Positions 5,956-64,000 of a DNA stretch of 64,000 nucleotides are shown here, piece after piece (within the stretch, counting starts at the first letter, position 1; each line of letters starts with the position of its first letter). This DNA comes from Mayamaea pseudoterrestris (Eukaryota), in assembly GCA_027923505.1 (NCBI GenBank), contig BROI01000026.1:310001-374000 (forward strand). The letters are read 5' to 3'. The notes beneath the pieces are model-generated. The model saw only the letters and a list, made by a program, of their open reading frames with translations. It was not told the origin of the DNA and did not search any database. Made by a program: the position numbers and the translations under genes.

Positions 5956-6110
5956 GCTTGACTGATCAAGCGATCCTTGGCTTGCTTGCTTATTCTACGA
6001 TGGCGCAGCAGCACTTCCACGCCAGCATGGTGTAAAGTGCAAAAAGATCCATCGGGAAGTCGATCCGAGGAAGTCGTGTCGTGACTCTCTCCATGTTGTC
6101 AGTCGCACAA

Positions 6111-6320
6111 AACAAGTGCCAGTGAAAACTGCGTCACGACGCAATAGTATGAAACAAGTGCCAGTGAAAACTGCGTCATAAGGCAATAATGCGAAACGAA
6201 TGCCAGTGAAAACTGCGTCACAAGGCAGTAGTACGAAACGAGTGCCAGTGAAAAATGCGTCACAAGGCAATATTGAGAAACGAGTGCCAGTGAAAACTGC
6301 GTCATCAGGCAATAGTAAAA
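6111..6320. repeat. Minisatellite, 5 x 42 bp, in a divergent promoter region
   Basis: (G/A)TGCCAGTGAAAA(C/A)TGCGTCA starts at 6116, 6158, 6200, 6242 and 6284, an exact 42-bp period. Confidence 0.95.
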
Positions 6321-20090: not shown

Positions 20091-20502
20091 ATGGCGGCAC
20101 AGTGGATGCCAAATGCTTGCAACTTAGAAATCAGTCTTTACGATTGGCATTACCGGTGTAAAATTGGCGCGTCAAATACTTGACCGGTCGAGCGGCAAAT
20201 GTGATGTAGTACCGGCGCAAATCAACCCGTGGGCGAGCACCTTTACCGTCAGGACTACCGACTAGAAACGTTTACATATAATGACAACTGCATTGCTTGG
20301 AAATCTTTGTACTTAATATTATAGGCAAATGATTAGCTTGCAGTGTGGTTAGCTATCATACCGTTATCGGCCAAGGTGGATGATGGTCCTCCTGCATGTG
20401 TGACGTGTCAGATTCGACGGAATTGACTGTGAATCATCAGCCATCCGTGTCGGCACATCCTTTTGTCACAATGGCCATCGACATCAAACGAACCTCGGCA
20501 CA

Positions 20503-38939: not shown

Positions 38940-39810
38940 CACCGGTCAAAGGTTTAATCGTGGTACAGGTTCAAGATCTTCGAACGTTGACATTCGCTGC
39001 CGCCGCGGGCGTGGGCATGTTCCACGGAAGCTCTTCGCAGATCTTGCCGATACACTGTAATCCCAATCCATCTTGTCAACTGTCGCGTATCGCTCGTCCG
39101 TTGGAATCGAAACGTTGAATCGAATCGCTCCATCCGGGTATCGTCGTAAGTATCCGCGAAATATGCTTCAACCGTTCCAAGTGCCCCGCTTGTGGCGCAG
39201 CTCGGAATCTCCCCATAGTCATGACAGCACAGTGAATGTCGAATCGACATAAACTTACTGCCCATTGCAACGCACCAATGATCGATTGATACTTCGCAAT
39301 TCCGTCGTCGTCAAGTTCTTTCGTTTCGTCGAGTTCCGGATGATCGCCGTCGCGTAGTGGACTGTCTGCGGTCGCGGTTCCTCGCCGAACATTTCTTTGT
39401 AGTTCGCTAGTAGTGCTATACTTCTTCGCTCCGAAGCAGAGTACGCCATCGTCGTCTCGCCAAACGTCTGCGCCCAAATGATATGCCAATGGACCGACGC
39501 CCTTCAACTTGTAGTTGTAGTTCTCAATTAAAAGATCCGTTAGTTCCTTCGGATTCTTCATCGCTATCGCTAAATCGTCGACATACACACAAACGTATTC
39601 GTAGTGCGTGCCTTTATCGCGCATCCACACGTCCGGTTCTGCGATACACGGCGTGAAGCCAATGTCGCGGAGCGTGTCTGCAAAGTGCTCGTGCCAGCGT
39701 GCGCCTGACGTGCGAAGACCGTATAATGCCTTCACGATCGTGAGCGTGTGACCCTCGAGCTCCCGAACTCCGGACCTGCCACGATATAAACCTTCTCTTC
39801 GTTTTCCTTC
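38940..39810 (-). pseudogene. Frameshifted RT C-terminal half and RNase H start of the copia element
   Basis: Copia motifs KALYGLRTSGARW, YVDDL, YQSIIGALQWAVSLCRFDI, GYLRRYPDGAIRF and EELPWNMPTP are split across frames by several 1-nt indels. Confidence 0.75.
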
Positions 39811-42800: not shown

Positions 42801-44306
42801 TTTTCGGGTGTCTTGGGCGCCGTCGCACGCTTGTCCTTCAACTGCTTTCGCTGATCGAACTTCATCTCCAACCAGACTTCATCCTTCACGCTCGCGTGAG
42901 GTTTCTTCATGATCGCTGCAAATCGTTCCGCCGATAAGCCGCTTGGAGTCGCGCCGCCATTGCCGCCGCCGCCTCCTTTCGTTCCACTAGACTGCGCTTG
43001 ATTGATTGTGCGCTTAGTCTTCGTCGTCGATGGGTGCTTCTTGTCATACTTGATGCAGCACTCTTCTAAGTGCGCGTACAACTGCGCGAAATTGTCTTCC
43101 GAGTCGTGTTGCCCCATGTGTTTCTTGATGGCAATCATTCCGTCAAAACCTGCTAGCGAGGCGCTGAATCCAGTGTGCTCAGAGAAAGCGTCGCGTAGCA
43201 TGTCGTATCGTTGTAAACCTGTCAGAGCTTCTGCGTCCATTTCGAGCAGCCAGATGACTTTCTTGTAGAACAGTGCGAGAAATTCGATCGTCGGCCTTGA
43301 CCACTTCTCGGTCAGCCGCATTCCCTGCAGTTCCGTTCGCGCGCGTTCCTTCTCGATGTGAGCAGTAGCGCCTTCTTCGTATCGCGTTCGCAATCGTTGG
43401 TAGACTTCGCGTCCGTCCATCGTCTTCTTGAACTGCTGTACTGCGAGTGATGCAGACGGAGTTCGACAGTGCGTGAGAAAGATTCTGTATACAAACACAT
43501 TCTTCTTTGCATACGCCTTCTGTTCCTTCGGTCCCTTTTCCTTTGGGTCATAATCGTCGTCAAAGACTTCGTGGAAGTCGTGCAATGTAGCGATGACTTT
43601 CAACTCGGAAATCCACTGTTTCCACGAGGAATCCAGCTTCATTTCTTTACAATCCTTCGCCGAGAACTTGATAGACTTCGTAAATTGGTCTGAATACTTC
43701 TCGTCGTCTTCGTCGTCGCCGAGGTCCAATACGGATGTCGGTGACTGCTTCGTGTCCACGTCCACGCTCGTCGGTGGCACCTTGTCGGCCGAGTCGGGTT
43801 TCGACTCGTCGCCTTCGTTCGTTAGCGTGGAGTCCTTGGATTCGTCCTTCTTGGATTCCGTTTTGCTTTCTTTTGCTGGAGGTTTCGCTCCGCTTCCGCT
43901 GCCCACGCTCGCAATGTTGCGCGCTTGGACTCGTTCCTTCGCTCGTGCTGTGACGAACGTCGCCAGTGTTTCGGTGGTCAGTTGCGACCATATCTTGATG
44001 TCCGGCGACTCTTGCGCCAAATACCATTCGATCGCGTTCGTGATCGTGCGTTGTTTCATCTTCGTTAGCGAGTGTTCGCTCGTTTCCTGCGTGACATTGT
44101 CGCCATCGTCAGTCGTCGTCGTTGTCGTCGTCGTGACGTTCCACTTCGTCGCGAAATCGTCGTACTCCATCTCGATCAATTGCGTAAGCGATTCTACTCC
44201 GAGTTCGTCGAATAACTCCTTGAACTGAGGATCTTGGAAAACGCCTACGTTCTCTTCGTAAACATGCGCAAAAGCCGCGTCTTTCTGCGCGCGAGTTTCC
44301 GCCATC
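39810..44306 (-). CDS. Copia gag-pol polyprotein, intact part (ATG about 44306 to first frameshift about 39810)
   Basis: Single open frame of about 1500 aa through gag, protease, integrase and the N-terminal half of RT. Confidence 0.85.
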
Positions 44307-44446
44307 GTTGTCGTCGTGACAATGTTCTTGCTATCACCTGCGGAACTTTCCGGGCCAAGAACCAACGTGCGTCCACGTTACTTCGTAAATCAATAGTACT
44401 CTTCGTCGATAAAGTCTCTATGCCGAGGCAATGAGTCTCAAGACAG

Positions 44447-44886
44447 TGTTAATCTTGTAACTTGTAAATCAAATCGTTGCACCTTTCGCTTGTAGCTGTC
44501 CTTGGATGGCCAATCCAAGCTTGCAGTTGCTACAATACGAGAGACGAATAAATCGCTTTCTTAACTCTTCAAGCTTAGTAAGTCTGCTTGTTTCTACTCT
44601 ATATCGCACTAGTTTCAGCAATATGCTCGTTGAATCGCTTCGAAGCCGTCGCTGCCACGCATCACGCGATCGTGAGGCTGTGGTGAGCCGCGAGTGCCGC
44701 TGTGTCACCCTATCGGACATTCGGTGTGACTTGCCCGATTTTCGCTGTTTTCGTTCGCATCCTGCAAGACGTGCCGACTCGTCTCACGTTCGCCGTCTGA
44801 TTTTCTTCCACCATGATGAGACACCCTTAGCGTTTGTTACTGCTGCTATCACCATTGACTCTAATATCATCTGCAAACATCTAACA
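44447..44886 (-). repeat. Putative 5' LTR (about 440 bp)
   Basis: The minus strand begins TGTTAG (44886) and ends TTAACA (44447), giving TGTTA/TAACA inverted termini about 140 bp upstream of the gag ATG; there is no second copy to confirm the boundaries. Confidence 0.55.
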
Positions 44887-44949
44887 GGCTCCCTTACTTG
44901 GAATTGGTTCTACGTAGTCTATTTCCCATCCGCAACAAGGAAATCATTT

Positions 44950-45562
44950 GATTTGGGCATACACATGGCTCTGGGTATGGGCGTTTGAAAATTTCGGCAT
45001 CTGCTGGCTGAGACTGGTGACAAGTTGTCACCAATCACATTGCCATCTACTGAGCCACAAGCCAGTCAAATTTTCTTGTAGCGCACCTGAAATAAGGATG
45101 TTAGCACCATTCTAGCTTGATTTGGGCATACACGTGGCTCTACGTATGGGCATTTGAAAATATTGGTATCTGCCGGCTGAGACTGGTGACAAGTTATCAC
45201 CAGTCACATTGCAGACAACCAAGGGACCATCCAGTCAAGTTTTCTTGTAGCCCACCTGAATTAAGGATGTTAGCACCATTCTGGCTTGATTTGGTAATAC
45301 ACGTGGCTCTTGGTGTGGGTTTTTGAAAATAACGGCATCTGCGAGACTGGTGACAAGTTGTCACCAATCACATTGCAAACAAGCCAGTCAAATTTTCTTG
45401 TAGCGCACCTGAAATAAGGATGTTAGCACCATTCTAGCTTGATTTGGGCATACACGTGGCTCTAGGTATGGGCATTTGAAAATAACGGCATCTGTTGGCT
45501 GAGAAGTCAGAGACCATCCAGTCAAAGTTTCTTGTAGCGCACCTGAAAAAGGGAGCACCATT
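44950..45562 (-). repeat. About 3-4 diverged copies of the 169-bp satellite, inverted relative to the main array
   Basis: GCTGAGACTGGTGACAAGTTGTCACCAATCACATTGC, TGTAGCGCACCTGAA and GCACCATTCT are reverse complements of main-array segments; palindrome copies near 45015, 45184 and 45348. Confidence 0.9.
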
Positions 45563-45974
45563 CTGGCCCCTAGATGGGCATTCAATGGATTGCACCAATG
45601 ACTGCATGACCACTGAGCCACCGCAGAAATTTCCTTGTAGCCACCAAACCCTTGTCCAATATGGGCATTTAATTAAGGTGGTGAAGACCCCAATCACTGC
45701 CATGGCATCCAAGTAGCTCAGTGACAGTGAGATCACTGACAAACCTTCTTGAGCGCCAGTTGAAGGCCATCTGCCTAGAAGGCGCCACTGGTGCACCAAT
45801 GGAGCATCAATGAGCACCTGCATGGCCAAACTCCTTGTTCCCATATGTTGCATTTAGTGTGGGAAACCCCGGCCATGGCACCAAGTAGTGGCGATGGTGA
45901 GAAGGAACATACATGATCTTAGTGCTATGTGGAAGCTAGCCATGTCTGCCTAGAAGGCACCACTGGTGCACCAA

Positions 45975-48388
45975 GGTGGGAATGCTTCACATAATGGGGA
46001 TGGCCAAAGTTCTGTGGATGCTGCCGCTGCTGCTGCGTGACATACAGTCACATGGAATACAGCATATCTACTCCTGTGTTGCCAGGAACACATGAGTTGT
46101 CCAACATTGAATGTGTCATAGAACCTCAAGTATATCATGTTGAAAGGTGGCATTGGCTAAAATGACAATATGAGCCATAGTTTGATTGGTTTGGATTCAT
46201 AGACTGTGCTGTTGTTCCATTTGGCCCATCTACTCCCACAGCTTCCCAAAACTTGAGCTTGCCAGGTTTGTTTGTCTTTCTAGGCCTCATGGATAGCTTG
46301 GCTGGTGGTGACAATGTCTATATTGATGGGGATGCTCAGCGGACCTGGTGGCGTGGTGTGGTGTGGTGACATGATACTTAGCTATGTGGAAGCTAGCATG
46401 TCTGTTCCCAAAACTTGATGGATTTGCATGACCACCAAGGTTTTAGAGTTTGATAGACCTTACCACTAGCTTGGTTAAAGGTGGCAATGTTGCAGATGAT
46501 GGGGATGACCAAAGTTCTGCTTGCGCTGCCGCTGCTGCTGTGTGACAAACAGTCCCACGGAATACAGTGTCTCTACTCCTGTTTTGCCAGGAACACATGA
46601 GTTGTCCAACATTGAATGTGTCATAGTACCTCACGTATACCTTGTTGAAAGGTGGCATTGGCTAAAATGATAATCTGAGCCATAGTTTGATTGGTTTGGA
46701 TTCATAGACTGTGCTGTTGTTCTATTTGGCCCATCTACTCCCACAGCTTTCCCAAAACTTGAGCTTGTCAGGTTTGATTGGTATTGTTGGCCTCATCAAT
46801 AGTTTGGCCAATGGTGGCAATGTTGGTAATTGATGGGGATGCCCAGCTGACCTGGTGGCATGGTGTGGTGTGGCGACGTATGGGATACGTAGCTATGTGG
46901 AAGCTAGCATATCTACTCCCAAAACTTGAAGGATTTGCATGACCGCCAAGGTTGTAGAGGTTGATTGACCTTACCAAAAGCTTTTTGAAAGGTGGGAATG
47001 CTTCACATGATGGGATGGCCATAGTTTTGCGGGTGCTGTCACCGCTGCTGTGTGACATACAGTCGCAGAAAATACAGCGTATCTACTTCAGTTTTGCCAG
47101 GAAAACATGAGTTGTCCCACATTGAATGTGTCATAGTACCTTATGTATACCTTGTCGAATGGTGGCACTGGCTAAAATGACAAACAGAGCCATAGTTTGA
47201 TTGATTTGGATTCATAGACTGCGCTGTTGTTCTATCTGGCCCATCTACTCCCATGGCTTTCCCAAAACTTGAGCTTGCCAGGTTTGTTTGGTTTTGTTGG
47301 CTTCATTGATAGTTTGGCCGATGGTGGCGATGTTGGTAATTTATGGGGATGCCCAGCGGACCTGGTGGCGTGGTGTGGTGTGATGTGGTGTGGTGTGGCG
47401 ACGTACGGGATACTTAGCTATGTGGAAGCTAGCCATCCCAAAACTTGAAGGATTTGCATGACCGCCAAGGTTGTCAATGATGATTGACCTTACCAAAAGC
47501 TTCTGAAGGGTGGGAATGCTTCACATGATGGGAATGGCCAAAGTTCTGCAAATGCTGTTGCTGCTGCTGCTGCGTGACATACAGTCACATGGAATACAGC
47601 GTATCTACTCCTGTTTTGCCAGGAACACATGAGTCGTCCAACATTGTATATGTCATAGTAGCTCAGGTTTACCTTGTCGATAGGTGGCATTGGCTAAAAT
47701 GACAAACAGAGCCATAGTTTGATTGGTTTGGATTCATGGACTGCGCTGTTGTTCTATTTGGCCCATCTACTCCCATGGCTTTCTCATAACTTGAGCTTGC
47801 CAGGTTTGATTGGTTTTGTAGACTGCATTGATAGCATGACCGATGGTGGCAGTGTTGGTAATTGATGGGGATGCCCATCGGACCTGGTGGTGTGGTGTGG
47901 TGTGGTGTGGTGTGGCGACGTACGGCATACTTAGCTATGTGGAAGCTAGCATATCGACTCCCAAAACTTGAAGGATTTGCATGACCACCAAGGTTGTAGA
48001 CGTTGAAAAAACCTTACCAAAAGCTTTTTGAAAGGTGGGAATGCTTCACATGATGGGATAGCCAAAGTTTTGCGGGTGCTGTCACTGCTGCTGCGTTACA
48101 TACAGTCACATGGAATACAGCGTATATACTCCTGTTTTGCCAGGAACACATGAGTTGTCCAACATTGTATTTGTCATAGTAGCTCACGTATACCTTGTTG
48201 AAAGGTGGCATTGGCTAAATTGACAATCAGAGCCATAGTTTGATTGGTTTGGATTCATAGACTACACTGTTGTTCTCTTTGGCCCATCTACTCCCACGGC
48301 TTTCCCAAAACTTGAGCTTGCCGGGTTTGTTTGGTTTTGTAGGCTTCATTGATAGTTTGGCCCATGATGGCTATGTTGGTAATTGATG
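45975..48388. repeat. Satellite B: about 4.7 tandem units of about 505-522 bp containing (GGTGT)n
   Basis: Anchor CCAGGAA at 46082, 46587, 47097, 47619 and 48140; unit length varies partly through the GGTGT tract. Confidence 0.93.
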
Positions 48389-51300
48389 GTATTTGGTGAC
48401 AACTTGCCACCAGTCTCAGCCCGCAGATGCCATGACATTCAAACCTACCTACAGAAGGCCCTGTAGGTGCCCAAATTACACCAGAATGGTGCCAACATTA
48501 TTATTCAGGCTGCGCTACAAGATGGTAGGCTTGGCTGGTGTCTCAGGGGATGGCAATGTATTTGGTGACAACTTGTCACCAGTCTCAGCCCGCAGATGCC
48601 GTGACATTCAAACGCCCCTACAGCAAGCCCTGTAGGTGCCCGAAATACACCAGAATGGTGCCAACATCCATATTCAAGCTGCGCTACAAGATGGTAGGCT
48701 TGGCTGGTGTCTCACAGGATGGCAATGTATTTGGTGACAACTTGTCACCAGTCTCAGCCCACAGATGCCGTGACATTCAAACACCCCTACAACAAGCCCT
48801 GTAGGTCTCCAAATTACACCAGAATGGTGCCAACATCATTATTCTGGCTGCGCTACAAGATGGTAGGCTTGGCTGGTGTCTCAGGGGATGGCAATGTATT
48901 TGGTGACAACTCGTCACCAGTCTCAGCCCGCGGATGCCTTGACATTCAAACGCCCCTACAGCAATCCCTGTAGGTGCCCAAATTACACCAGAATGGTGCC
49001 CACATCCTTATTCAGGCTGCGCTACAAGATGGTAGGCTTGGCTGGTGTCTCACAGGATGGCAATGTATTTGGTGACAACTTGTCACCAGTCTCAGCCCGC
49101 AGATGCCGTGACATTCAAATGCCCCTACATTAAGCCCTGTAGGTGCCCAAATTACACCAGAATGGTGCAAACATTATTATTCAGGCTGCGCTACAAGATG
49201 GTAGGCTTGGCTGGTGTCTCACAGGATGGCAATGTATTTGGTGACAACTTGTCACCAGTCTCAGCCCGCAGATGCCGTGACATTCAAATGCCCCTACATT
49301 AAGCCCTGTAGGTGCCCAAATTACACCAGAATGGTGCCAACATCATTATTCAGGCTGCGCTACATGATGGTAGGCTTGGCAAGTGTCTCAGGGGATGGCA
49401 ATGTAATTGGTGACAACTTGTCACCAGTCTCAGCCCGCAGATGCCGTGACATTCAAACGCCCCTACAGCAAGCCCTGTAGGTGCCCAAAATACACCTGAA
49501 TGGTGCCAACATCATTATTCAGGCCGCGCTACAAGATGGTAGGCTTGGCAAGTGTCTCAGGGGATGGCAATGTATTTGGTGACAACTTGTCACCAGTCTC
49601 AGCCCGCAGATGCCATGACATTCAAACGCCCCTACAGCAAGCCCTTTAGGTTCCCAAAATACACCAGAATGGTGCCAACATCATCTTTCAGGCTGTGCTA
49701 CAAGATGGTAGGCTTGGCTGGTGTCTCACGGGATGGCAATGTATTTGGTGACAACTTGTCACCAGTCTCAGCCCGCAGATGCTGTGACATTCAAACGCCC
49801 CTACATTAAGCCCTGTAGGTGTCCAAATTACACCAGAATGGTGCCAACATCATTATTCAGGCTGCGCTACAAGATGGTAGGCTTGGGAAGTGTCTCAGGG
49901 GATGGCAATGTATTTGGTGACAACTTGTCACCAGTCTCAGCCCGCAGATGCCGTGACATTCAAACGCCCCTAAAGCTAGCCCTGTAGGTGCCCAAATTAC
50001 ACCAGAATGGTGCCAACATCATTATTCAGGCTGCGCTACAAGATGGTAGGCTTGGCAAGTGTCTCAGGGGATGGCAATGTATTTGGTGACAACTTGTCAC
50101 CAGTCTCAGCCCGCAGATGCCGTGACATTCAAACGCCCCTACAGCAAGCCCTGTAGGTGCCCAAAATACACCAGAATGGTGCCAACATCATTATTCAGGC
50201 TGCGCTACAAGATGGTAGGCTTGGCTGGTGTTTCAGGGAATGGCAATGTATTTGGTGACAACTTGTCACCAGTCTCAGCCCACAGATGCCGTGACATTCA
50301 AACGCCCCTACAGCAAGCCCTGTAGGTGCCCAAAATACACCAGAATGGTGCCAACATTATTATTCAGGCTGCGCTACAAGATGGTAGGCTTGGCTGGTGT
50401 CTCAGGGGATGGCAATGTATTTGGTGACAACTTGTCCCCATTCTCAGTCCGCAGATGACATGACATTCAAACGCCCCTACAGCAAGCCCTGTAGGTGCCC
50501 AAAATACACCAGAATGGTGCCAATATCATTTTTCAGGCTGAGCTACAAATTGGTAGGCTTGGCTGGTGTCTCAGGGGATGGCAATGTATTTGGTGACAAC
50601 TTGTCACCAGTCTCAGCCCGCACATGCCGTGACATTCAAACGCCCCTACAGCAAGCCCTGTAGGTGCCCAAAAAACACCAGAATGGTGCCAACATCATCA
50701 TTCAGGCTGTGCTACAAGATGGTAGGCTTGGCTGGTGTCTCACGGGATGGCAATGTATTTGGTGACAACTTGTCACCAGTCTCAGCCCGCAGATGCCGTG
50801 ACATTCAAACGCCCCTACAGCAAGCCCTTTAGGTGCCCAAATTACACCAGAATGGTGCCAACATTATTATTCAGGCTGCGCTACAAGATGGTAGGCTTGG
50901 CTGGTGTCTCAGGGGATGGCAATGTATTTGGTGACAACTTGTCACCAGTCTCAGCCCGCAGATGCCGTGACATTCAAACGCCCCTACAGCAAGCCCTGTA
51001 GGTGCCCGAAATACACCAGAATGGTGCCAACATCCATATTCAAGCTGCGCTACAAGATGGTAGGCTTGGCTGGTGTTTCAGGGAATGGCAATGTATTTGG
51101 TGACAACTTGTCACCAGTCTCAGCCCGCAGATGCCGTGACATTCAAACGCCCCTACAGCAAGCCCTGTAGGTGCCCAAAAAACACCAGAATGGTGCCAAC
51201 ATCATCATTCAGGCTGTGCTACAAGATGGTAGGCTTGGCTGGTGTCTCACGGGATGGCAATGTATTTGGTGACAACTTGTCACCAGTCTCAGCCCGCAGA

Positions 51301-54300
51301 TGCCGTGACATTCAAACGCCCCTACAGCGAGCCCTGTAGGTGCCCAAAATACACCAGAATGGTGCCAACATCATTATTTAGGCTGCGCTACAAGATGGTA
51401 GGCTTGGCTGGTGTCTCAAGGGTTGGTAATGTATTTGGTGACAACTTGTCACCAGTCTCAGCCCGCAGATGCCGTGACATTCAAACACCCCTACAGCAAG
51501 CCCTGTAGGTGCCCAAAATACACCAGAATGGTGCCAACATCATTATTCAGGCTGCGCTACAAGATGGTAGGCTTGGCTGGTGTCTCAGGGGATGGCAATG
51601 TATTTGGTGACAACTTGTCACCAGTCTCAGCCCGCAGATGCCGTGACATTCAAACGCCCCTACAGCAAGCCCTGTAGGTGCCCAAAATACACCAGAATGG
51701 TGCCAACATCATCATTCAGGCTGCGCTACAAGATGGTAGGCCTGGCTGGTGTCTCACAGAATGGCAATGTATTTGGTGACAACTTGTCACCAGTCTCAGC
51801 CCGCTGATGCCATGACATTCAAACGCCCCTACAGCAAGCCCTGTAGGTGCCCAAAATACAATAGAATGGTGCCAACATTATTATTCAGGCTGCGCTACAA
51901 GATGGTAGGCTTGGCTGGTGTCTTTGACTGTCACCCAGCGCAATTTGGTGACAACGTCACCCTCAGCTCACAAGATGGGGCTTGGCCTCAGCGCGAGACA
52001 CTACAGCAAGCCCTGTAGGTGCCCTAATTACACAAGAATGGTACCAACATCATTATTCAGGCTGCGCTACAAGATGGTAGGCTTGGCTGGTGTCTCCAGG
52101 GATGGCAATGTATTTGGTGACAACTTGTCACCAGTCTCAGCCCGCAAATGCCATGACATTCAAACGCCCCTACAGCAAGCCCTGTAGGTGCCCAAAATAC
52201 ACCAGGAAGGTGACAACATCCTTATTCAGGCTGCGCTACAAGATGGTAGGCTTGGCGGATGCCTCAGGGGACGGCAATGTATTTGGTGACAACTTGTCAC
52301 CAGTCTCAGCCCAAAGATGCCGTGACATTCAAATGCCCCTACAGCAAGCCCTGTAGGTGCCCAAAATACACCAGAATGGTGCCAACATCATTATTACGGC
52401 TGCGCTACAAGATGGCAGGCTTGGCTGGTGTCTCACATGATGGTAATGTATTTGGTGACAAATTGTCACCAGTCTCAGCCCGCAGATGCCGTGACATTCA
52501 AACGCCCCTACAGCAAGCCCTATAGGTGCCCAAAATACACTGGAATGGTGCCAACATTATAATTTAGGCTGCGCTACAAGATGGTAGGCTTGGCTGGTGT
52601 CTCAGGGGATGGCAATGTATTTGGTGACAACTTGTCCCCATTCTCAGTCCGCAGATGACATGACATTCAAACGCCCCTACAGCAAGCCCTGTAGGTGCCC
52701 AAAATACACCAGAATGGTGCCAACATCATTATTCAGGCTGCGCTACAAGATGGTAGGCTTGGCTGGTGTCTCAGGGGATGGCAATGTAATTGGTGACAAC
52801 TTGTCACCAGTCTCAGCCCGCAAATGCCATGACATTCAAACGCCCCTACAGCAAGCCCTGTAGGTGCCCAAAATACACCAGAATGGTGCCAGCATCATTA
52901 TTCAGGCTGCGCTACAAGATGGTAGGCTTGGCTGGTGTCTCAGGGGATGGCAATGTATTTGGTGACAACTTGTCACCAGTCTCAGCCCGCAAATGCCAGG
53001 ACATTCAAACGCCCCTACAGCAAGCCCTGTAGGTGCCCAAAATACACCAGAATGGTGCCAACATCATTATTCAGGCTGCGCTACAAGATGGTAGGCTTGG
53101 CTGGTGTCTCAGGGGATGGCAAATGTATTTGGTGACAACTTGTCACCAATCTAAGCCCGCAGATGCCGTGACATTCAAACGCCCCTACAGCAAGCCCTGT
53201 AGGTGCCCAAAATACACCAGAATGGTGCCAACATCATTATTCAGGCTGCGCTACAAGATGGTAGGCTTGGCTGGTGTCTCAGGGGATGGCAATGTATTTG
53301 GTGACAACTTGTCACCAGTCTCAGCCCGCAGATGCCATGACATTCAAACGCCCCTACAGCAAGCCCTGTAGGTGCCCCAAACTACACCAGAATGGTGCCT
53401 TCACTATTGTTAAGGCTGCGCTACAAGATGGTAGGCTTGGCTGTTGTCTCATGGGGTGGCGAAAGTATTTGGTGACAACTTGTCACCAGTCTCAGCCCGC
53501 AGATGCCGTGACATTCAAACGCCCTACAGCAAGCCCTGTCACGTTACACCAGAATGGTGCCAGCATCATTATTCAGGCTGCGCTACAAGATGGTAGGCTT
53601 GGCTGGTGTCTCAGGGGATGGCAAAGTATTTGGTGACAACTTGTCACCAGTCTCAGCCCGCAGATGCCGTGACATTCAAACGCCCCTACAGCAAGCCCTG
53701 TAGGTGCCTAATTATACCAGAATGGTGCCAACATCATTATTCAGGCTGCGCTACAAATGATAGGCTTGGCTGGTGTCTCAGGGGATGGCAATGTATTTGG
53801 TGACAACTTGTCACCAGTCTCAGCCCGCAGATGCCGTGACATTCAAACGCCCCTACAGCAAGCCCTGTAGGTGCCCAAAATACACCAGAATGGTGCCAAC
53901 ATCATTATTCAGGCTGCGCTACAAGATGGTAGGCTTGGCTGGTGTCTCAGGGGATGCAATGTATTTGGTGACAACTTGTCACCAGTCTCAGCCCGCGGAT
54001 GCCGTGACATTCAAACGCTCCTACAGCAAGCCCTGTGGGGTGCCCAAAATACACCAGAATGGTGCCAACATCATTATTCAGGCTGCGCTACAAGATGGTA
54101 GGCTTGGCTGGTGTCTCAGGGGATGGCAATGTATTTGGTGACAACTTGTCACCAGTCTCAGCCCGCAGATGCCGTGACATTCAAACGCCCCTACAGCAAG
54201 CCCTGTAGGTCGCGAAATACACCAGAATGGTGCCAGCATCATTATTCAGGCTGCGCTACAAGATGGTAGGCTTGGCTGGTGTCTCAGGGGATGGCAATGT

Positions 54301-57300
54301 ATTTGGTGACAACTTGTCACCAGTCTCAGCCCGCAGATGCCGTGACATTCAAACGCCCCTACAGCAAGCCCTGTAGATGCCCAAAATACACCAGAATGGT
54401 GCCAACATCATTATTCAGGCTGCGCTACAAGATGGTAGGCTTGGCTGGTGTCTCAGGGGATGGCAATGTTTTGGTGACAACTTGTCACCAGTCTCAGCCC
54501 GCAGATGCCGTGACATTCAAACGCCCCTACAGCAAGCCCTGTAGGTGCCCAAAATACACCAGAATGGTGCCAACATCATTATTCAGGCTGCGCTACAAGA
54601 TGGTATGCTTGGCTGGTGTCTCAGGGGATGGCAATGTATTTGGTGACAACTTGTCACCAGTCTCAGCCCGCAGATGCCTTGACATTCAAACGCCCCTACA
54701 GCAAGCCCTGTAGGTGCCCAAAATACACCAGAATGGTGCCAACATCATTATTCAGGCTGCGCTACAAGATGGTAGGCTTGGCTGGTGTCTCAGTGGATGG
54801 CAATGTATTTGGTGACAACTTGTCACCAGTCTCAGCCCGCAGATGCCGTGACATTCAAACACCCCTACAGCAAGCCCTGTAGGTGCCCAAAATACACCAG
54901 AATGGTGCCAACATTATTATTCAGGCTGCGCTACAAGATGGTAGGCTTGGCTGGTGTCTCAGGGGTTAGCAATGTATTAGGTGACAACTTGTCACCAGTC
55001 TCAGCCCGCAGATGCCGTGACATTCAAACACCCCTACAGCAAGCCCTGTAGGGTGCCCAAAATACACCAGAAGGTGCCAACATCATTATTCAGGCTGCGC
55101 TACAAGATGGTAGGCCTGGCTGGTGTCTCAGGGATGGCAATGTATTTGGTGACAACTTGTAACAGTCTCAGCCCGCAGATGCCGTGACATTCAAACGCCC
55201 CTACAGCAAGCCCTGTATGCGCCCAAAATACACCAGAATGGTGCCAACATCATTATTCCGGCTGCGCTACAAGATGGTAGGCTTGGCGGTGTCTCAGGGG
55301 GATGGCAATGTATTTGGTGACAACTTGTCACCAGTCTCAGCCCGCAGATGCCGTGACATTCAAACGCCCCTACAGCAAGCCCTGTAGGTCCAAAATACAC
55401 CAGAATGGTGCCTCCATCATTATTCAGGCTGCGCTACAAGATGGTAGGCTTGGCTGGTGTCTCAGGGGATTGCAATGTATTTGGTGACAACTTGTCACCA
55501 GTCTCAGCCCGCAGATGCCGTGACATTCAAACGCCCCTACAGCAAGCCCTGTAGGTGCCCAAAATACACCAGAATGGTGCCAACATCATTATTCAGGCTG
55601 CGCTACAAGATGGTAGGCTTGGCTGGTGTCTCAGGGGATGGCAATGTATTTGGTGACAACTTGTCACCAGTCTCAGCCCGCAGATGCCGTGACATTCAAA
55701 CGCCCCTACAGCAAGCCCTGTAGGTGCCCAAAATACACCAGAATGGTGCCAACATCATTATTCAGGCTGCGCTACAAGATGGTAGGCTTGGCTGGTGTCT
55801 CAGTTGATGGCAATGTTATTGGTGACAACTTGTCACCAGTCTCAGCCCGCAGATGCCGTGACATTCAAACGCCCCTACAGCAAGCCCTGTTGGTGCCCAA
55901 AATACACCAGAATGGTGCCAACATCATTATTCAGGCTGCGCTACAAGATGGTAGGCTTGGCTGGTGTCTCAGGGGATGGCAATGTATTTGGTGACAACTT
56001 GTCACCAGTCTCAGCCCGCAGATGCCGTGACATTCAAACGCCCCTACAGCAAGCCCTGTAGGTGCCCAAAATACACCAGAATGGTGCCAACATCATTATT
56101 CAGGCTGCGCTACAAGATGGTAGGCTTGGCTGGTGTCTCACGGGATGGCAATGTATTTGGTGACAACTTGTCACCAGTCTCAGCCCGCAGATGCCGTGAC
56201 ATTCAAACGCCCCTACAGCAAGCCCTGTAGGTGCCCAAAATACACCAGAATGGTGCCAACATCATTATTCAGGCTGCGCTACAAGATGGTAGGCTTGGCT
56301 GGTGTCTCAGGGGATGGCAATGTATTTGGTGACAACTTGTCACCAGTCTCAGCCCGCAGATGCCGTGACATTCAAACGCCCCTACAGCAAGCCCTGTAGG
56401 TGCCCAAAATACACCAGAATGGTGCCAACATCATTATTCAGGCTGCGCTACAAAATGGTAGGCTTGGCTGGTGTCTCAGGGTGTGGCAATGTATTTGGTG
56501 ACAACTTGTCACCAGTCTCAGCCCGCAGATGCCGTGACATTCAAACGCCCTACAGCTAGCCCTGTAGGTGCCCACAGTACACCAGAATGGTGCCAACATC
56601 ATATTAAGGCTGCGCTACAAGATGGTAGGCTTGGCTGGTGTCTCAGGGGATGGCAATGTATTTGGTGACAACTTGTCACCAGTCTCAGCCCGCAGATGCC
56701 GTGACATTCAAACGCCCCTACAGCAAGCCCTGTAGGTGCCCAAAATACACCAGAATGGTGCCAACATCATCATTCAGGCTGCGCTACAAGATGGTAGGCT
56801 TGGCTGGTGTCTCAGTTGATGGCAATGTATTTGGTGACAACTTGTCACCAGTCTCAGCCCGCAGATGCCGTGACATTCAAACGCCCCTACAGCAAGCCCT
56901 GTAGGTGCCCAAAATACACCAGAATGGTGCCAACATCATTATTCAGGCTGCGCTACAAGATGGTAGGCTTGGCTGGTGTCTCAGGGGATGGCAATGTATT
57001 TGGTGACAACTTGTCACCAGTCTCAGCCCCCAGATGCCGTGACATTCAAACGCCCCCTACAGCAAGCCCTGTAGGTGCCCAAAATACACCAGAATGGTGC
57101 CAACATCATTAATCAGGCTGCGCTACAAGATGGTAGGCTTGGCTGGTGTCTCAGGGGATGGCAATGTATTTGGTGACAACTTGTCACCAGTCTCAGCCGG
57201 CAGATGCCGTGACATTCAAACGCCCCTACAGCAAGCCCTGTAGGTGCCCAAAATACACCAGAATGGTGCCAACATCATCATTCAGGCTGCGCTACAAGAT

Positions 57301-60300
57301 GGTAGGCTTGGCTGGTGTCTCAGTTGATGGCAATGTATTTGGTGACAACTCGTCACCAGTCTCAGCCCGCAGATGCCGTGACATTCAAATGCCCCTACAG
57401 CAAGCCCTGTAGGTGCCCAAAATACACCAGAATGGTGCCAACATCATTTTAGGCTGTTCTAAAAAATGGTAGGCTTGGCTGGTGTCTCAGGGGTTAGCAA
57501 TGTATTAGGTGACAACTTGTCACCAGTCTCAGCCCGCAGATGCCGTGACATTCAAACGCCCCTACAGCAAGCCCTGTAGGTACCCAAAATACACCAGAAT
57601 GGTGCCAACATCTCTATTCAGGCTGCGCTACAAAATGGTAGGCTTGGCTGGTGTCTCAGGGGATGGCAATGTATTTGGTGACAACTTGTCACCAGTCTCA
57701 GCCCGCAGATGCCGTGACATTCAAACGCCCCTACAGCAAGCCCTGTAGGTGCCCAAAATACACCAGAATGGTGCCAACATCATCATTCAGGCTGCGCTAC
57801 AAGATGGTAGGCTTGGCTGGTGTCTCACGGGATGGCAATGTATTTGGTGACAACTTGTCACCAGTCTCAGCCGGCAGATGCCGTGACATTCAAACGCCCC
57901 TACAGCAAGCCCTGTAGGTGCCCAAAATACACCAGAATGGTGCCAACATCATTATTCAGGCTGCGCTACAAGATGGTAGGCTTAGCAATGTCTCAGGGCC
58001 GCAATATACGGATGGTAATGTATTTGGTGACAACTTGTCACCAGTCTCAGCCCGCAGATGCCGTGACATTCAAACGCCCCTACAGCAAGCCCTGTAGGTG
58101 CCCAAAATACACCAGAATGGTGCCAACATCATTATTCAGGCTGCGCTACAAGATGGTAGGCTTGGCTGGTGTCTCAGGGGATGGCAATGTATTTGGTGAC
58201 AACTTGTCACCAGTCTCAGCCCGCAGATGCGGTGACTTTCAAATGCCCCTACAGCAAGCCCTGTAGGTGCCCAAAAAACACTAGAATGGTGCCAACATCA
58301 TCATTCAGGCTGCGCTACAAGATGGTAGGCTTGGCTGGTGTCTCAGGGGATGGCAATGTATTTGGTGACAACTTGTCACCAGTCTCAGCCCGCAGATGCC
58401 GTGACATTCAAACGCCCCTACAGCAAGCCCTGTAGGTGCCCAAAATACACCAGAATGGTGCCAACATCATCATTCAGGCTGCGCTACAAGATGGTAGGCT
58501 TGGCTGGTGTCTCAGGGGATGGCAATGTATTTGGTGACAACTTGTCACCAGTCTCAGCCCGCAGATGCTGGACATTCAAACGCCCCTACAGCAAGCCCTG
58601 TAGGTGCCCAAAATACACCAGAATGGTGCCAACATCATTATTCAGGCTGCGCTACAAGATGGTAGGCTTGGCTGGTGTCTCAGGGGATGGCAATGTATTT
58701 GGTGACAACTTGTCACCAGTCTCAGCCCGCAGATGCCATGACATTCAAACGCTCCGCAAAGCCCTGTAGGTGCCCAAAATACACCAGAATGGTGCCAACA
58801 TTATTATTCAGGCTGCGCTACAAGATGGTAGACTTGGCTGGTGTCTCAGGGATGGCAATGTATTTGGTGACAACTTGTCACCAGTCTCAGCCCCGCAGAT
58901 GCCGTGACATTCAAACTCAGCCCCTACAGCAAGCCCTGTAGGTGCCCAAAATACACCAGAATGGTGCCAACATCATTATCTCAGGCTGCGCTACAAGATG
59001 GTAGGCTTGGCTGGTGTCTCAGGGGATGGCAATGTATTTGGTGACAACTTGTCACCAGTCTCAGCCCGCAGATGCCGTGACATTCAAACGCCCCTACAGC
59101 AAGCCCTGTAGGTGCCCAAAATACACCAGAATGGTGCCAACATCATTATTCAGGCTGCGCTACAAGATGGTAGGCTTGGCTGGTGTCTCAGGGGATGGCA
59201 ATGTATTTGGTGACAACTTGTCACCAGTCTCAGCCCACAGATGCCTTGACATTCAAACACCAGAATGGTGCCAAAATCATTATTCCAGCTTCGCTACAAG
59301 ATGGTAGGCTTGGCTGGTGTCTCAGGGGATGGCAATGTATTTGGTGACAACTTGTCTCCAGTCTCAGCCGGCAGTGGCCATGATATTCAAAGGCCCCTAC
59401 AGCAAGCCCTTTAGGTGCCCAAATAATACCAGAATGGTGCCAACATCATTATTCAGGCTGCGCTACAAGATGGTAGGCTTGGTTGGTGTCTCAGGGGATG
59501 GCAATGTATTTGGTGACAACTTGTCACCAGTCTCAGCCCGCAGATGCCGTGACATTCAAACGCCCCTACAGCAAGCCCTGTAGGTGCCCAAAATACACCA
59601 GAATGGTGCCAACATCATTATTCAGGCTGCGCTACAAGATGGTAGGCTTGGCTGGTGTCTCAGGGATGGCAATGTATTTGGTGACAACTTGTCACCAGTC
59701 TCAGCCTGCAGATGCCGTGACATTAACAAACACCCTACAGCAAGCCCTGTAGGTGCCCAAAATACACCAGAATGGTGCCAACATCATTATTCAGGCTGCG
59801 CTACAAGATGGTAGGCTTGGCTGGTGTCTCAGGGGATGGCAATGTATTTGGTGACAACTTGTCACCAGTCTCAGCCCGCAGATGCCGTGACATTCAAACG
59901 CCCCTACAGCAAGCCCTGTAGGTGCCCAAAATACACCAGAATGGTGCCAACATCATTATTCAGGCTGCGCTACAAGATGGTAGGCTTGGCTGGTGTCTCA
60001 GGGGATGGCAATGTATTTGGTGACAACTTGTCACCAGTCTCAGCCCGCAGATGCCGTGACATTCAAACGCCCCTACAGCAAGCCCTGTAGGTGCCCAAAA
60101 TACACCAGAATGGTGCCAACATCATTATTCAGGCTGCGCTACAAGATGGTAGGCTTGGCTGGTGTCTCAGGGGATGGCAATGTATTTGGTGACAACTTGT
60201 CACCAGTCTCAGCCCGCAGATGCCGTGACATTCAAACGCCCCTACAGCAAGCCCTGTAGGTGCCCAAAATACACCAGAATGGTGCCAACATCCTTATTCC

Positions 60301-62287
60301 GGCTGCGCTACAAGATGGTAGGCTTGGCTGGTGTCTCAGGGGATGGCAATGTATTTGGTGACAACTTGTCACCAGTCTCAGCCCGCAGATGCCGTGACAT
60401 TCAAACGCCCCTACAGCAAGCCCTGTAGGTGCCCAAAATACACCAGAATGGTGCCAACATCATTATTCAGGCTGCGCTACAAGATGGTAGGCTTGGCTGG
60501 TGTCAGACATTGCGGATGACATCTTGTCCGAGTCTCAGCCCGACCAGCCCTCCAAGGCATGGCCAATGTATTTTGGGGACGGGTACTTGTCACCAGTCTC
60601 AGCCCCCAGATGCCGTGACATTCAAATGCCCCCTACAGCAAGCCCTGTAGGTGCCCAAAATACACCAGAATGGTGCCAACATCATTATTCAGGCTGCGCT
60701 ACAAGATGGTAGGCTTGGTTGGTGTCTCAGGGGATGGCAATGTATTTGGTGACAACTTGTCACCAGTCTCAGCCCGCAGATGCCGTGACATTCAAACGCC
60801 CCTACAGCAAGCCCTGTAGGTGCCCAAAATACACCAGAATGGTGCCAACATCATTATTCCGGCTGCGCTACAAGATGGTAGGCTTGGCGGGTGTGTCAGG
60901 GGATGGCAATGTATTTGGTGACAACTTGTCACCAGTCTCAGCCCGCAGATGCCGTGACATTCAAACGCCCCTATACAGCAAGCCCTGTAGATGCCCAAAA
61001 TACACCAGAATGGTGACAACATCCTTATTCCGGCTGCGCTACAAAATGGTAGGCTTGGCTGGTGTCTCAGGGGATGGCAATGTATTTGGTGACAACTTGT
61101 CACCAGTCTCAGCCCGCAGGTGCCTTGACATTCAAACACCCCTACATCAGGTCCTGTAGATGCCCAAAATACACCAGAATGGTGACAACATCCTTATTCC
61201 GGCTGCGCTACAAAATGGTAGGCTTGGCTGGTGTCTCAGGGGATGGCAATGTATTTGGTGACAACTTGTCACCAGTCTCAGCCCGCAGGTGCCTTGACAT
61301 TCAAACACCCCTACATCAGGTCCTGTAGGTGCCCATATTACACCAGACTGGTGCCTACATCATTATTTAGGATGCGCTACAAGATGGTAGGCTTGGTTGG
61401 TGTCTCAGGAGACTGCAATGTGATTGGTGACAACTTGTCACCAGTCTCAGCCCGCAGATGCGGTGACTTTCAAATGCCCCTACAGCAAGCCCTGTAGGTG
61501 CCCAAAATACACCAGAATGGTGCCATCATCATTAGTAAGGCTGCGCTACATGATGGTAAGCTTGGCTGGTATCTCAGGGGATGACAATGTATTTGGTGAC
61601 AACTTGTCACCAGTCTCAGCCTGCAGATGCTGTGACATTCAAACGCCCCCACAGCAAGCCCTGTAGGTGCCCAAAATACACCAGAATGGTGCCAACATCA
61701 TTATGCAGGCTACGCTACAAGATGGTAGGCTTGGCTGGTGTCTCAGGGGATGGCAATGTATTTGGTGACAACTTGTCACCAGTCTCAGCCCACAGATGCT
61801 GAGACATTCAAGCGCCCCTACAGCAAGCCCTGTAGGTGCCCAAAATACACCAGAATGGTGCCAACATCAATATTCAGGCTGCGCTACAAGATGGTAGGCT
61901 TGGCTGGTGTCTCAGGGGATGGCAATGTATTTGGTGACAACTTGTCACCAGTCTCAGCCCGCAGATGCCGTGACATTCAAACGCCCCTACAGCAAGCCCT
62001 GTAGGTGCCCAAAATACACCAGAAGGGTGCCAACATCATTATTCAGGCTGCGCTACAAGATGGTAGGCTTGGCTGGTGTCTCAGGGGATGGCAATGTATT
62101 TGGTGACAACTTGTCACCAGTCTCAGCCCGCAGATGCCATGACATTCAAACGCCCCTACAGCAAGCCCTGTAGATGCCCAAAATACACCGGAATGGTGCC
62201 AACATCATCATTTAGGTTGTGGTAAAAAATGATAGGCTTGGCTGGTGTCTCAGGGGATGGCAATGTATTTGGTGACAACTTGTCACC
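48389..62287. repeat. Satellite A: about 82 tandem 169-bp monomers (about 13.9 kb)
   Basis: Near-identical unit GGCAATGTATTTGGTGACAACTTGTCACCAGTCTCAGCCCGCAGATGCCGTGACATTCAAACGCCCCTACAGCAAGCCCTGTAGGTGCCCAAAATACACCAGAATGG...; repeated ORF starts step by 169 (48538, 48707, 48876, ...). Confidence 0.99.
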
Positions 62288-62362
62288 TGTTCCTGGTAAA
62301 ACAGGAGTAGATACCCTGTATTCCGTGCGACTGTATGTCACACAGCTGCAGCGGCAGCACCC
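62288..62362 (-). repeat. Inverted fragment of satellite B at the A/C junction
   Basis: TTCCTGGTAAAACAGGAGTAGATACCCTGTATTCC...CTGTATGTCACACAGC is the reverse complement of the satellite B segment GTGACATACAG...GAATACAGCGTATCTACTCCTGTTTTGCCAGGAA. Confidence 0.9.
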
Positions 62363-64000
62363 AGGCAGGAAGCAGTGACTTGTTTGAATGATCAATGATG
62401 CACTGAAGCCTCCTTCAGGAAGTGGTGGGAGCCTGGTTGGTGTTTGGCAGTCAACTGGTGTGTTTGTGTTCAAACTGTCTCTGGTGCACTGGCCAGAGCC
62501 TGGCCAGAGCGTGGTGCCTGAATCCATTCTTGGGATGTAGAACTGATGCTTACATATATTTTTGAGCTTCTGCGCATGAATGGATTATTCCAAGTGCTTG
62601 TGGGTGCCAGAGCAGTGGCATATAGCAGAAACAATGGCTAGGCCCATCATTTTATAATTCATAAAACATTGAAATGGAGACTATACCAATCCATGGCGCC
62701 CTTCCACAACCATGGCAGGACACCATTGGCTTGTTTGACTGATCATTGATCCACTGAAGCCTCCTTCAGCAAGTGGTGGAAGCCTGGTTGGTGTTTGGCA
62801 GTCAACTGGTGTGTTTGTTTTAATACAGTTTTTGGAGCATTGGCCAGAGCTTGGCCAGAGCTTGGTGCCTGAAATCAATTCTTGGGATGTAGAACAGTCA
62901 CTAACATTTATATTTTGGGTTTCTGCGCAACAATGAATCATTCCAAGTGCTTGTGGGTGCCAGAGCAAGTGGCATATAGCAGGAACAATGGGTAGGCCCA
63001 TCATTTTATGGTTCATAAAACAATGAAATGGAGACTATATCAATCCATGGCGCCCTTCCACTACCAAAGCAGGACAGCAGTGGCTTGTTTAACTGATCAA
63101 TGATGCACTGAAGCCTCCTTCAGCAAGTGGTGGGAGTCTGGTTGGTGTTTGGCAGTCACCTGGTGCGGTCGTTTTCACACAGTCTCTGGAGCATTGGCCA
63201 GAGCTTGGCCAGAGCTTGGTGCCTGAAATCCAGTATTGGCATGTAGAACAGTCACTAACATTTATATTTCGGGTTTCTGCGCAAGAATGGATCATTCCAA
63301 GTGCTTGTGGGTGCCAGAGCAAGTGGCATATAGCAGGAACAATGGCTAGGCCCATCATTTTATGGTTCATAAAACAATGAAATGGAGACTATACTGTGCC
63401 ATGGCGCCCTTCCAGTAACATAGCAGGACAGCAGTGGCTTGTTTGATTGATTAATGATGCACTGAAGCCTCCTTCCGCAAGTGGTGGAAGCCTGGTTGGT
63501 TTTTGGCAGTCAGCTGGTGTGGTCGTTTTCACACAGTCTCTGGAGCATTGGCCAGAGCTTGGCCAGAGCTTCGTGCCTGAAATCCATTGTTGGGATGTAG
63601 AACAGTCACTAACATTTATATTTTGGGTTTCTGCGCAAGAATGGATCATTCCAAGTGCTTGTGGGTGCCAGAGCAAGTGGCATATAGCAGGAACAATGAA
63701 TAGGCCCATCATTTTATGGTTCATAAAACAATGAAATGGAGACTATATCAATCCATGGCGCCCTTCCACTACCATGGCAGGACAGCATTGGCGTGTTTGA
63801 CTGATCAATGATGCACTGAAGCCTCCTTCAGCAAGTGGTGGGAGCCTGGTTGGTGTTTGGCAGTCACCTGGTGCGGTCGTTTTCACACAGTCTCTGGAGC
63901 ATTGGCCAGAGCTTGGCTTGAGTGTGGTACCTGAAATCCAGTATTGGCATGTAGAACAGTCACTTACATATATGTTTGGGTTTCTGCGCAAGAATGGATT
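62363..64000. repeat. Satellite C: 354-bp tandem repeat, at least 4.6 units, continuing past the window end
   Basis: Anchor GGAGACTATA at 62676, 63030, 63384 and 63738, an exact 354-bp period. Confidence 0.97.

What the first reader, a model, noticed from the sequence alone, without database searches (positions are those of the whole stretch)
44950..64000. Composite satellite domain with nucleosome-scaled units (169, ~3x170, 2x177 bp): candidate satellite-type centromere or heterochromatin in a diatom-like genome
Seen: gene-dense DNA ends abruptly and is followed by more than 19 kb of three tandem-repeat families with unit lengths 169, ~505-522 and 354 bp. Known: plant and animal centromeric satellites are mono-nucleosome sized (alpha satellite 171 bp, Arabidopsis ~178 bp), whereas the centromeres described for Phaeodactylum are short, low-GC and non-satellite. 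Inference: this may be a satellite-based (peri)centromere or a subtelomeric heterochromatin block with nucleosome phasing, an architecture unlike that of the model diatom.
Basis: partly seen in the sequence, partly recalled or inferred. Interest (0 to 1): 0.8.

Follow-up and report, generated by a model that had tools for sequence, protein, structure and literature searches.

The report
Dispersed satellite island in a diatom
This is a real 22-kb block of nucleosome-sized tandem repeats, but it is only one of many such blocks scattered between genes across a small diatom genome, so it looks more like dispersed silent chromatin than like a chromosome's single centromere, although a role as one unit of a many-part centromere is not excluded.

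Summary
The repeats are real. The island is 22.4 kb, ends 3.4 kb past the window, and has a young copia element on its left and genes on its right. Its 169-bp repeat (S169) has 7,799 exact core copies (at least 4.3% of the assembly) in at least 86 places on 34 of 41 contigs, up to 8 per contig; 20 of 20 checked places are arrays. That rules out one array per chromosome. Nine unrelated repeat lineages have units of 168-181 bp or multiples, and all are CpG-poor; CpG sites mutate 4 times faster, a methylation scar. S354 shows no internal 2x177 structure. Spacing is no more even than random, and 1.7 Mb of contig C2 is satellite-poor, which argues against a Tyba-type holocentromere. Best reading (0.55): dispersed, methylated satellite islands like Tribolium's euchromatic Cast families, not found described for diatoms in the library searched. 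A CENH3 gene is present; CENH3 occupancy is untested. Novel case: clustered or polycentric satellite centromeres (0.15). The scan noted this family many times before on other pieces of this genome; the genome-wide map and the holocentric test did not appear in the notes shown.

The parts
39076..44766 (-). Young Ty1/copia LTR retrotransposon beside the island: 5' LTR-like end at about 44345-44766, gag-pol ORF 39614-44377, RT fragment in another frame; no second LTR found
   Evidence: 40 near-identical (99-100%) full-length copies of the 5' end scored genome-wide, of 117 candidates
44948..45567 (-). Diverged S169 variant, 3.4 copies plus a fragment, ~78% identical to the main array and inverted relative to it; the same variant recurs x6.7 beyond the window (65514-66640)
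45644..45974 (-). Relic of about two units of a 168-bp family (S168; an array of it lies at C26:276 kb)
   Evidence: 79-81% identity
45973..48389 (+). S510 satellite, 4.7 copies, units 505-522 bp, 85% matches, CpG o/e 0.44
48389..62290 (+). Main S169 array, 82 copies, GC 52%, CpG o/e 0.35; 56 of 80 unit spacings are exactly 169 bp; two short scrambled patches near 51.95 and 60.5 kb
56158..56176 (.). Example of the 19-bp perfect dyad (9-bp arms, 1-nt centre) in each S169 unit; the best-conserved part of the monomer; its 9-bp core also occurs in S347 and the S181 subtype
62290..62362 (-). Inverted 73-bp fragment of S510 at the S169/S354 junction
62364..64000 (+). S354 satellite (continues to window-equivalent 64957; 7.3 copies; units 353-354 bp); a minor family with 23 exact marker copies in 11 places, 7 of them here

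Best explanation
The block is one of about a hundred dispersed satellite-heterochromatin islands lying between genes. A library of unrelated repeats with nucleosome-sized units is amplified in tandem and exchanged between chromosomes; S169 is a widespread, highly homogenised family. The islands are CG-methylated and silent, and they collect other satellites and copia insertions. They are not the chromosome's single centromere. Shown: dispersal, multi-family content, unit-length clustering, cross-contig homogenisation, CpG loss, co-location with copia. Inferred: present-day methylation (by DNMT5, as in Phaeodactylum; the gene was not searched for here), spread by ectopic conversion or circle re-insertion, selection of unit length by nucleosome spacing, and absence of CENH3.
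For: 7,799 exact dyads, reversed-pattern control 0; 410 of 530 monomers carry the exact dyad, so about 10,000 monomers by extrapolation. At least 86 places on 34 of 41 contigs; 26 on C1-C7 (Chao2 estimate 28). 20 of 20 checked places hold 5 or more units. Whole C26 has ten non-coding satellite islands, 19% of its bases, CpG o/e 0.24-0.6 in island-rich 10-kb bins against about 1.1 in gene DNA. Nine lineages without mutual homology have units of 168-181, 347, 354 or 514 bp, consensus CpG o/e 0.08-0.49. CpG transitions 255/2678 vs non-CpG C/G transitions 672/29265. 5 of 12 arrays, on three contigs, share an identical consensus. 20 array flanks share no common mobile-element border. Spacing is no more even than random (P=0.79), and S169-free stretches reach 1.7 Mb. 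The same layout is non-centromeric in Tribolium (PMC4675708 abstract).
Against: No direct chromatin data exist here. No Phaeodactylum-type low-GC centromere was seen in 868 kb of fetched loci (lowest 2-kb GC 0.448), though that is under 3% of the genome. 29 of 82 contig ends lie in satellites, 12 of them in S169, so larger unassembled arrays may exist. The dyad is the best-conserved 19-mer (2.0% vs 3.9-11.2% for 16 others), and its core is shared by three lineages, which hints at a binding protein. Satellite density is regional (C26 17/47 tiles vs C2 arm 1/20; P=0.008), as pericentromeric domains would be.
Confidence: 0.55

Rival explanations
1. Monocentric satellite centromere with dispersed siblings: on each chromosome the largest S169 array or the densest cluster carries CENH3, and the other arrays are inactive copies. 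This 14-kb array would more likely be an inactive or pericentromeric copy.
For: CENH3 gene present. 12 contig ends break in S169. S169 regions of 30-50 kb on C1, C7, C18 and C29. Regional clustering. This array is the largest S169 array on C26.
Against: 12 S169 ends are few if every chromosome had an unspanned centromeric array. Arrays of 7-30 kb occur repeatedly on single contigs with a near-identical consensus. Contigs are not telomere-to-telomere, so the per-chromosome count is unknown.
Confidence: 0.2
2. Repeat-based clustered, polycentric or holocentric chromosomes (Rhynchospora Tyba or Meloidogyne type): many arrays each load CENH3 and fold into one kinetochore plate, with the palindromic box as a recognition site.
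For: Monomer 169 bp vs Tyba 172 bp; arrays of tens to about 100 units vs about 106 per Tyba array (4.6 M monomers in 43,400 arrays); one place per ~470 kb on C1-C7 vs 247 kb-1.4 Mb for Tyba. Conserved dyad with a core shared across three lineages. CENH3 retained.
Against: Spacing is not more even than random on C1-7, C8-13 or all contigs with 2 or more places (P=0.79, 0.78, 0.83). S169-free stretches of 1.7, 0.98, 0.87 and 0.81 Mb. The 1.7-Mb C2 arm is poor in all families (2.7%). The box is absent from S510, S354, S174, S176 and S168. The diatoms studied are reported as monocentric (10.1101/096016).
Confidence: 0.15
3. Subtelomeric heterochromatin.
For: The island is 47 kb from a contig end. 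The one assembled telomere (C11 start) abuts a satellite array.
Against: That telomere abuts S180, not S169. No telomere-junction match on C26. Genes follow the island. Most S169 places are far inside contigs.
Confidence: 0.03
4. Assembly artefact: contigs chained or inflated through a few true arrays.
For: Some arrays look poorly polished (C29:130-142 kb, C1:636-638 kb). No listed public contig formally bridges the S169/S354 junction; the best has 27 letters on the S169 side.
Against: Arrays carry their own local variants and subtypes (within-array difference 12.7 vs between-array 18.1). Each island has different companions and flanks. Gene-dense segments are bounded by arrays on both sides at spacings of tens of kb. 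The tandem joint is present in 4 of 4 runs.
Confidence: 0.07

Closest known systems
Tribolium castaneum euchromatic satellite families Cast1-Cast9 (Pavlek et al. 2015, PMC4675708; abstract and section 3.5 read)
   Same: Several unrelated families with ~170 and ~340 bp monomers, about 4% of the genome, arrays scattered among genes with exchange between chromosomes, mostly without shared flanks.
   Different: Here one family alone is at least 4.3% of a 30.6-Mb genome; families stack in composite islands with copia elements; there is strong CpG loss; and the non-centromeric location shown by FISH in the beetle is untested here.
Rhynchospora Tyba repeat-based holocentromere (10.64898/2026.01.17.700053; passages read)
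   Same: Nucleosome-sized monomer, many discrete arrays of similar unit number, gene-rich DNA between them, CENH3 retained.
   Different: Uneven spread with Mb-scale gaps on contigs of only 1-3 Mb; many co-resident families; no CENH3 data.
Meloidogyne clustered centromeres with a conserved 19-bp box (PMC13404089; abstract read)
   Same: Multi-family tandem repeats in clusters; a short conserved box.
   Different: Only a 9-bp core is shared, in 3 of 9 lineages; no Helitron-like shared borders seen in 20 flanks.
Phaeodactylum tricornutum and Fistulifera solaris centromeres (10.1101/096016, passages and section 10; 10.1101/2021.11.10.468027, passages)
   Same: Same algal group; conserved CENH3.
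   Different: Those are short, low-GC, typically one per chromosome and without highly repeated elements; this array is 51-52% GC and highly repeated.
Phytophthora satellites PpSat1/2 (PMC7290008, abstract) and copia-rich P. sojae centromeres (PMC7082073, passages)
   Same: Stramenopile satellites; copia elements in heterochromatin.
   Different: P. sojae centromeres are 211-356 kb transposon domains with about 90% of CoLT copies inside; here 12 of 29 other copia ends lie by satellites.

Membership tests
Regional satellite centromere (alpha-satellite / Arabidopsis 178-bp type) | Nucleosome-sized monomer in head-to-tail arrays | tested here: met
   169 bp x82
Regional satellite centromere (alpha-satellite / Arabidopsis 178-bp type) | One dominant array per chromosome | tested here: not met
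   86 places; 21 contigs with 2 or more, 14 with 3 or more; 20 of 20 checked are arrays
Regional satellite centromere (alpha-satellite / Arabidopsis 178-bp type) | CENH3 gene present | tested here: met
   C2:130344-130610; longer loop 1, Q-to-A and F-to-W changes against H3; nearest hits are diatom proteins. The diagnostic residues are recalled knowledge.
Regional satellite centromere (alpha-satellite / Arabidopsis 178-bp type) | CENH3 occupancy of the array | not testable with these tools
   no ChIP data
Tyba-type repeat-based holocentromere | Many discrete arrays of tens to about 100 monomers | tested here: met
   arrays of 7-32 kb at fully read loci
Tyba-type repeat-based holocentromere | Arrays spread along whole chromosomes | tested here: not met
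   no S169 found in the first 1.7 Mb of C2; spacing no more even than random; C2 arm 1 of 20 tiles with any satellite
Tyba-type repeat-based holocentromere | CENH3 on each array; line-like kinetochore | not testable with these tools
   needs ChIP and cytology
Meloidogyne-type clustered centromere | Conserved box across centromeric repeat families | tested here: inconclusive
   9-bp palindromic core in S169, S347/348 and the S181 subtype; absent from the other consensuses tested
Phaeodactylum-type low-GC centromere | Short region of low GC | tested here: not met
   array GC 0.50-0.53; lowest 3-kb GC on C26 is 0.457
Dispersed euchromatic satDNA (Tribolium Cast type) | Several unrelated ~170/~340 bp families | tested here: met
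   nine lineages
Dispersed euchromatic satDNA (Tribolium Cast type) | Arrays among genes on many chromosomes with inter-chromosomal exchange | tested here: met
   34 of 41 contigs; identical consensus on C26, C13 and C29
Dispersed euchromatic satDNA (Tribolium Cast type) | Separate from the centromere | not testable with these tools
   needs FISH or ChIP
Subtelomeric satellite | Adjacent to telomere repeats | tested here: not met
   2 telomere-junction matches genome-wide, none on C26; genes follow the island

The most novel reading that the evidence does not exclude
This diatom has abandoned the short AT-rich diatom centromere for satellite-based centromere units: several S169 arrays per chromosome (with S347 and S181 sharing a palindromic box read by a dimeric protein) load CENH3 and form clustered or polycentric kinetochores, a repeat-based poly- or holocentromere of a kind not found reported for diatoms in the library searched.
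Probability: 0.15. Interest if true: 0.9.

Novelty: new variant of a known kind. Interest (0 to 1): 0.55.

Why it matters
Diatom genomes of this size are described with short, non-satellite centromeres. A 30.6-Mb diatom assembly with at least 4% in one nucleosome-sized satellite, and nine independent lineages converging on 168-181 bp units or multiples, offers a compact system in which to test why satellites are nucleosome-sized. One CENH3 ChIP would decide between dispersed heterochromatin, a satellite monocentromere and a polycentric chromosome; either centromeric outcome would change the picture of diatom centromeres and of episome design for them. As a single locus the island is ordinary within its own genome.

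Tried and rejected
Internal 2x177 structure of S354: not found. 10-bp WW or AA/TT periodicity over ten consensuses: power 3.14 and 3.00 at 10-10.8 bp against up to 3.0 and 3.12 at other periods; not shown. Strong folding of the monomer: z=-1.75, 8 of 200 shuffles as good. Rfam: 0 matches. A fixed composite mobile unit: S510 and S354 are absent from the other loci read, and flanks share no common border. Copia targeting: 12 of 29 other LTR loci have satellite in the outer 1.5 kb, 6 are nested in copia, 11 neither (30 of 40 full-length matches were fetched). That exceeds the C26 background for all DNA (21%; P=0.012, or 0.001 without the nested six) but not for non-ORF DNA (55%; P=0.96 or 0.70). 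C26 is satellite-rich, so the test is inconclusive. A chromodomain-like stretch in the copia ORF was seen by eye (recalled motif) but gave 0 Pfam families at E up to 10. Raw-data abundance: summed contig depth is about 1000:1 for S169 over S354, but such sums are no copy number, so the earlier notes' claim that S169 is far more abundant than assembled was not confirmed. No RNA holder listed. Small-share runs with other organism labels (X4, X5) carry the same variants at far lower depth; not used as evidence of conservation. The ESM Atlas look-up of RPB2 gave no taxonomic help. One dyad-variant count failed through a pattern slip and was redone. Overall homology between S169, S180/181 and S347: none above shuffles.
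Full report
Observation. The window is G000:C26:310001-374000 of a 30.6-Mb, 41-contig assembly. Tandem Repeats Finder confirms the three families at the stated places: 169 bp x3.4 (44948-45504), about 510 bp x4.7 (45973-48389), 169 bp x82.1 (48389-62287) and 354 bp from 62365. Reading on shows that the island is finite. S354 ends after 7.3 copies, followed by S169 fragments, an inverted S169 variant x6.7, S176 and S510 relics, and genes from window-equivalent 67640. The total is about 22.4 kb. The left neighbour is a copia retrotransposon rather than genes. The island has no stop-free frame over 151 aa and no Rfam match. The head-to-tail S169 joint is present in contigs of 4 of 4 public runs from two studies; no listed contig formally bridges the S169/S354 junction.

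Organism. The histone search found a CENH3-type gene at C2:130344-130610. Its identical database protein is labelled by its source as a cse4-like histone of Mayamaea pseudoterrestris, and the named hits among the best 120 are diatoms. Against H3 it has a longer loop 1 and substitutions that I recall as typical of CENH3.

Genome-wide map. The 19-bp dyad of S169 occurs 7,799 times exactly, the reversed control 0 times: at least 1.3 Mb, or 4.3%. Because listings stop at 100 rows, I sampled arrays with rare variants. Searches were listed in full (15, 24, 38 rows); some searches listed 100 of 134, 129 and 410, so later contigs are under-sampled. I entered representative coordinates of each cluster, not every row. 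Merging at 30 kb gives 86 places on 34 of 41 contigs; 21 contigs have two or more, C1 has 8 and C13 has 7. On C1-C7 sampling looks near saturation (26 seen, Chao2 28, in 12.2 Mb). Twenty places chosen from C1, C2, C5, C6, C12 and C13 were fetched: 20 of 20 hold five or more units, and 17 are satellite over at least 1,600 of 1,700 bases. One array per chromosome is therefore excluded. S354 is minor: 23 exact markers in 11 places, 7 here. By my reading, 6 of the other 10 places lie within 30 kb of a sampled S169 array.

A library of nucleosome-sized repeats. All of C26 (424,661 bases) holds ten non-coding satellite islands, 19% of its DNA. Clustering 70 consensuses gave ten non-coding families with units of 168, 169, 172, 174, 172-181, 176, 179, 347, 354 and 514 bp, plus one probably coding 21-bp-based repeat that I left out. 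S172 and S174 are distantly related, so nine lineages remain. Under a log-uniform prior over 120-600 bp, the chance that one unit falls within 165-185 bp times 1, 2 or 3 is 0.21, about 1e-6 for nine by my arithmetic. The size window was chosen with the data in view, and shorter repeats (11 and 42 bp) exist. No 10-bp periodicity stood out, so phasing is not shown.

Chromatin state. Every family is CpG-poor (o/e 0.08-0.49), against about 1.1 in gene DNA. In 366 indel-free monomers, transitions at CpG sites run at 9.5% against 2.3% at other C/G sites (monomers are not independent). This is the expected scar of 5-methylcytosine. In Phaeodactylum, DNMT5a accounts for DNA methylation and represses young transposons (PMC9998398, abstract); I did not search for the gene here. 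Five of 12 arrays, on three contigs, share the same consensus, yet arrays keep local variants (12.7 differences within vs 18.1 between). That fits exchange between chromosomes plus local amplification. Twenty array flanks share only other satellites, so no carrier transposon is evident. Copia ends lie by satellites at 12 of 29 other loci, which is not separable from simple tolerance of insertions in non-coding DNA.

Centromere or not. Against a regional centromere: the multiplicity above. Against subtelomere: only 2 telomere-junction matches in the assembly, none on C26, and the one true telomere abuts S180. The layout invites comparison with Rhynchospora Tyba holocentromeres (172 bp; 4.6 million monomers in 43,400 arrays; spacing 247 kb-1.4 Mb, passages). 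However, spacing here is no more even than random (P=0.79, 0.78, 0.83), and S169-free stretches reach 1.7 Mb. Twenty 9-kb samples of that C2 arm held satellite in only 1, against 17 of 47 tiles on C26 (P=0.008). On the other side: 29 of 82 contig ends break in satellites, 12 in S169; no low-GC stretch was met in 868 kb of fetched loci, too little to count; and the dyad is the most conserved part of S169, with paired changes that keep the palindrome in 9 of 28 variant cells at one pair (shared descent possible). Its 9-bp core is the only one of 169 S169 9-mers found in two other families, and it occurs twice in 171 kb of gene DNA. A dimeric binding protein is possible; self-correction of a palindrome is the plain alternative.

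Comparison and novelty. The closest described system is Tribolium's euchromatic Cast1-9 families: about 4.3% of the genome, mostly ~170 and ~340 bp monomers, exchanged between chromosomes, separate from the centromere (PMC4675708, abstract and section 3.5). Diatom centromeres in print are short, low-GC and typically one per chromosome (10.1101/096016, passages and section 10; 10.1101/2021.11.10.468027, passages). Searches for diatom + centromere + satellite + tandem repeat, diatom + holocentric, diatom + satellite DNA (30 of 61 listed), diatom T2T/CENH3 (25 of 271 listed) and Mayamaea + genome + repeat showed no title or abstract describing such satellites in a diatom. A paper on this species has 0 occurrences of satellite, tandem, centromer, heterochromatin or telomer in its main text (PMC9724779, term search only; supplements not seen). 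The library lacks most subscription papers. Earlier notes of this scan report the same family on other pieces of this genome (55 fit 'satellite', 8 shown); the words holocentric, holocentromere and Tyba were met in no finding. Those notes are not support. Their claim of much higher raw abundance could not be confirmed from summed contig depths.

Verdict. Real, methylation-scarred satellite island, one of about a hundred. Dispersed heterochromatin 0.55; satellite monocentromere with dispersed siblings 0.20; clustered or polycentric units 0.15; artefact 0.07; subtelomeric 0.03. New variant of a known kind; interest 0.55, rising to 0.9 if CENH3 proves to sit on many arrays.

Noticed in passing
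G000:C26:415,626-423,180 (L005): A 7.5-kb repeat built on a 21-bp unit (42/63/105/210 bp higher periods) lies largely in long open frames and keeps more CpG than the satellites: probably a coding repeat protein.
   Followed up: no
G000:C30:219,806 (L143): Four telomere hexamers sit inside a contig between an S169 remnant and an S180 array: a healed break, a fusion scar or a misjoin.
   Followed up: partly
G000:C11:1-1200 (L113): The only assembled telomere found (27 hexamers) directly abuts an S180 array; 10 contig ends lie in S180, which may be partly subtelomeric.
   Followed up: partly
window 39076-44766 and loci L074-L103: A very young copia family (99-100% identical 5' ends; 117 candidates), often nested in itself; at C12:166,117 it is inserted directly into an S169 monomer.
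   Followed up: partly
G000:C1:627-641 kb, C29:130-142 kb: A second S169 subtype, 16-18 differences from the window's consensus; similar sequence is seen at several contig ends.
   Followed up: partly
G000:C26:1-8,858 and 226-238 kb: S347/348 is a real dimer-like unit with two dyads 169 bp apart that share the 9-bp core of the S169 dyad.
   Followed up: partly
window 6110-6317; C8:5.5 kb; C26:212 kb: A dispersed 42-bp minisatellite (about 5-9 copies) recurs between genes.
   Followed up: no
G000:C18:66-1200 (L120): An 11-bp-unit satellite (103 copies, CpG o/e 0.03) at the contig start, outside the nucleosome-size class.
   Followed up: no
window 20404-22065 +: ORF resembling a sigma-70-type factor (by eye, recalled motifs), probably a plastid-targeted sigma factor.
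   Followed up: no
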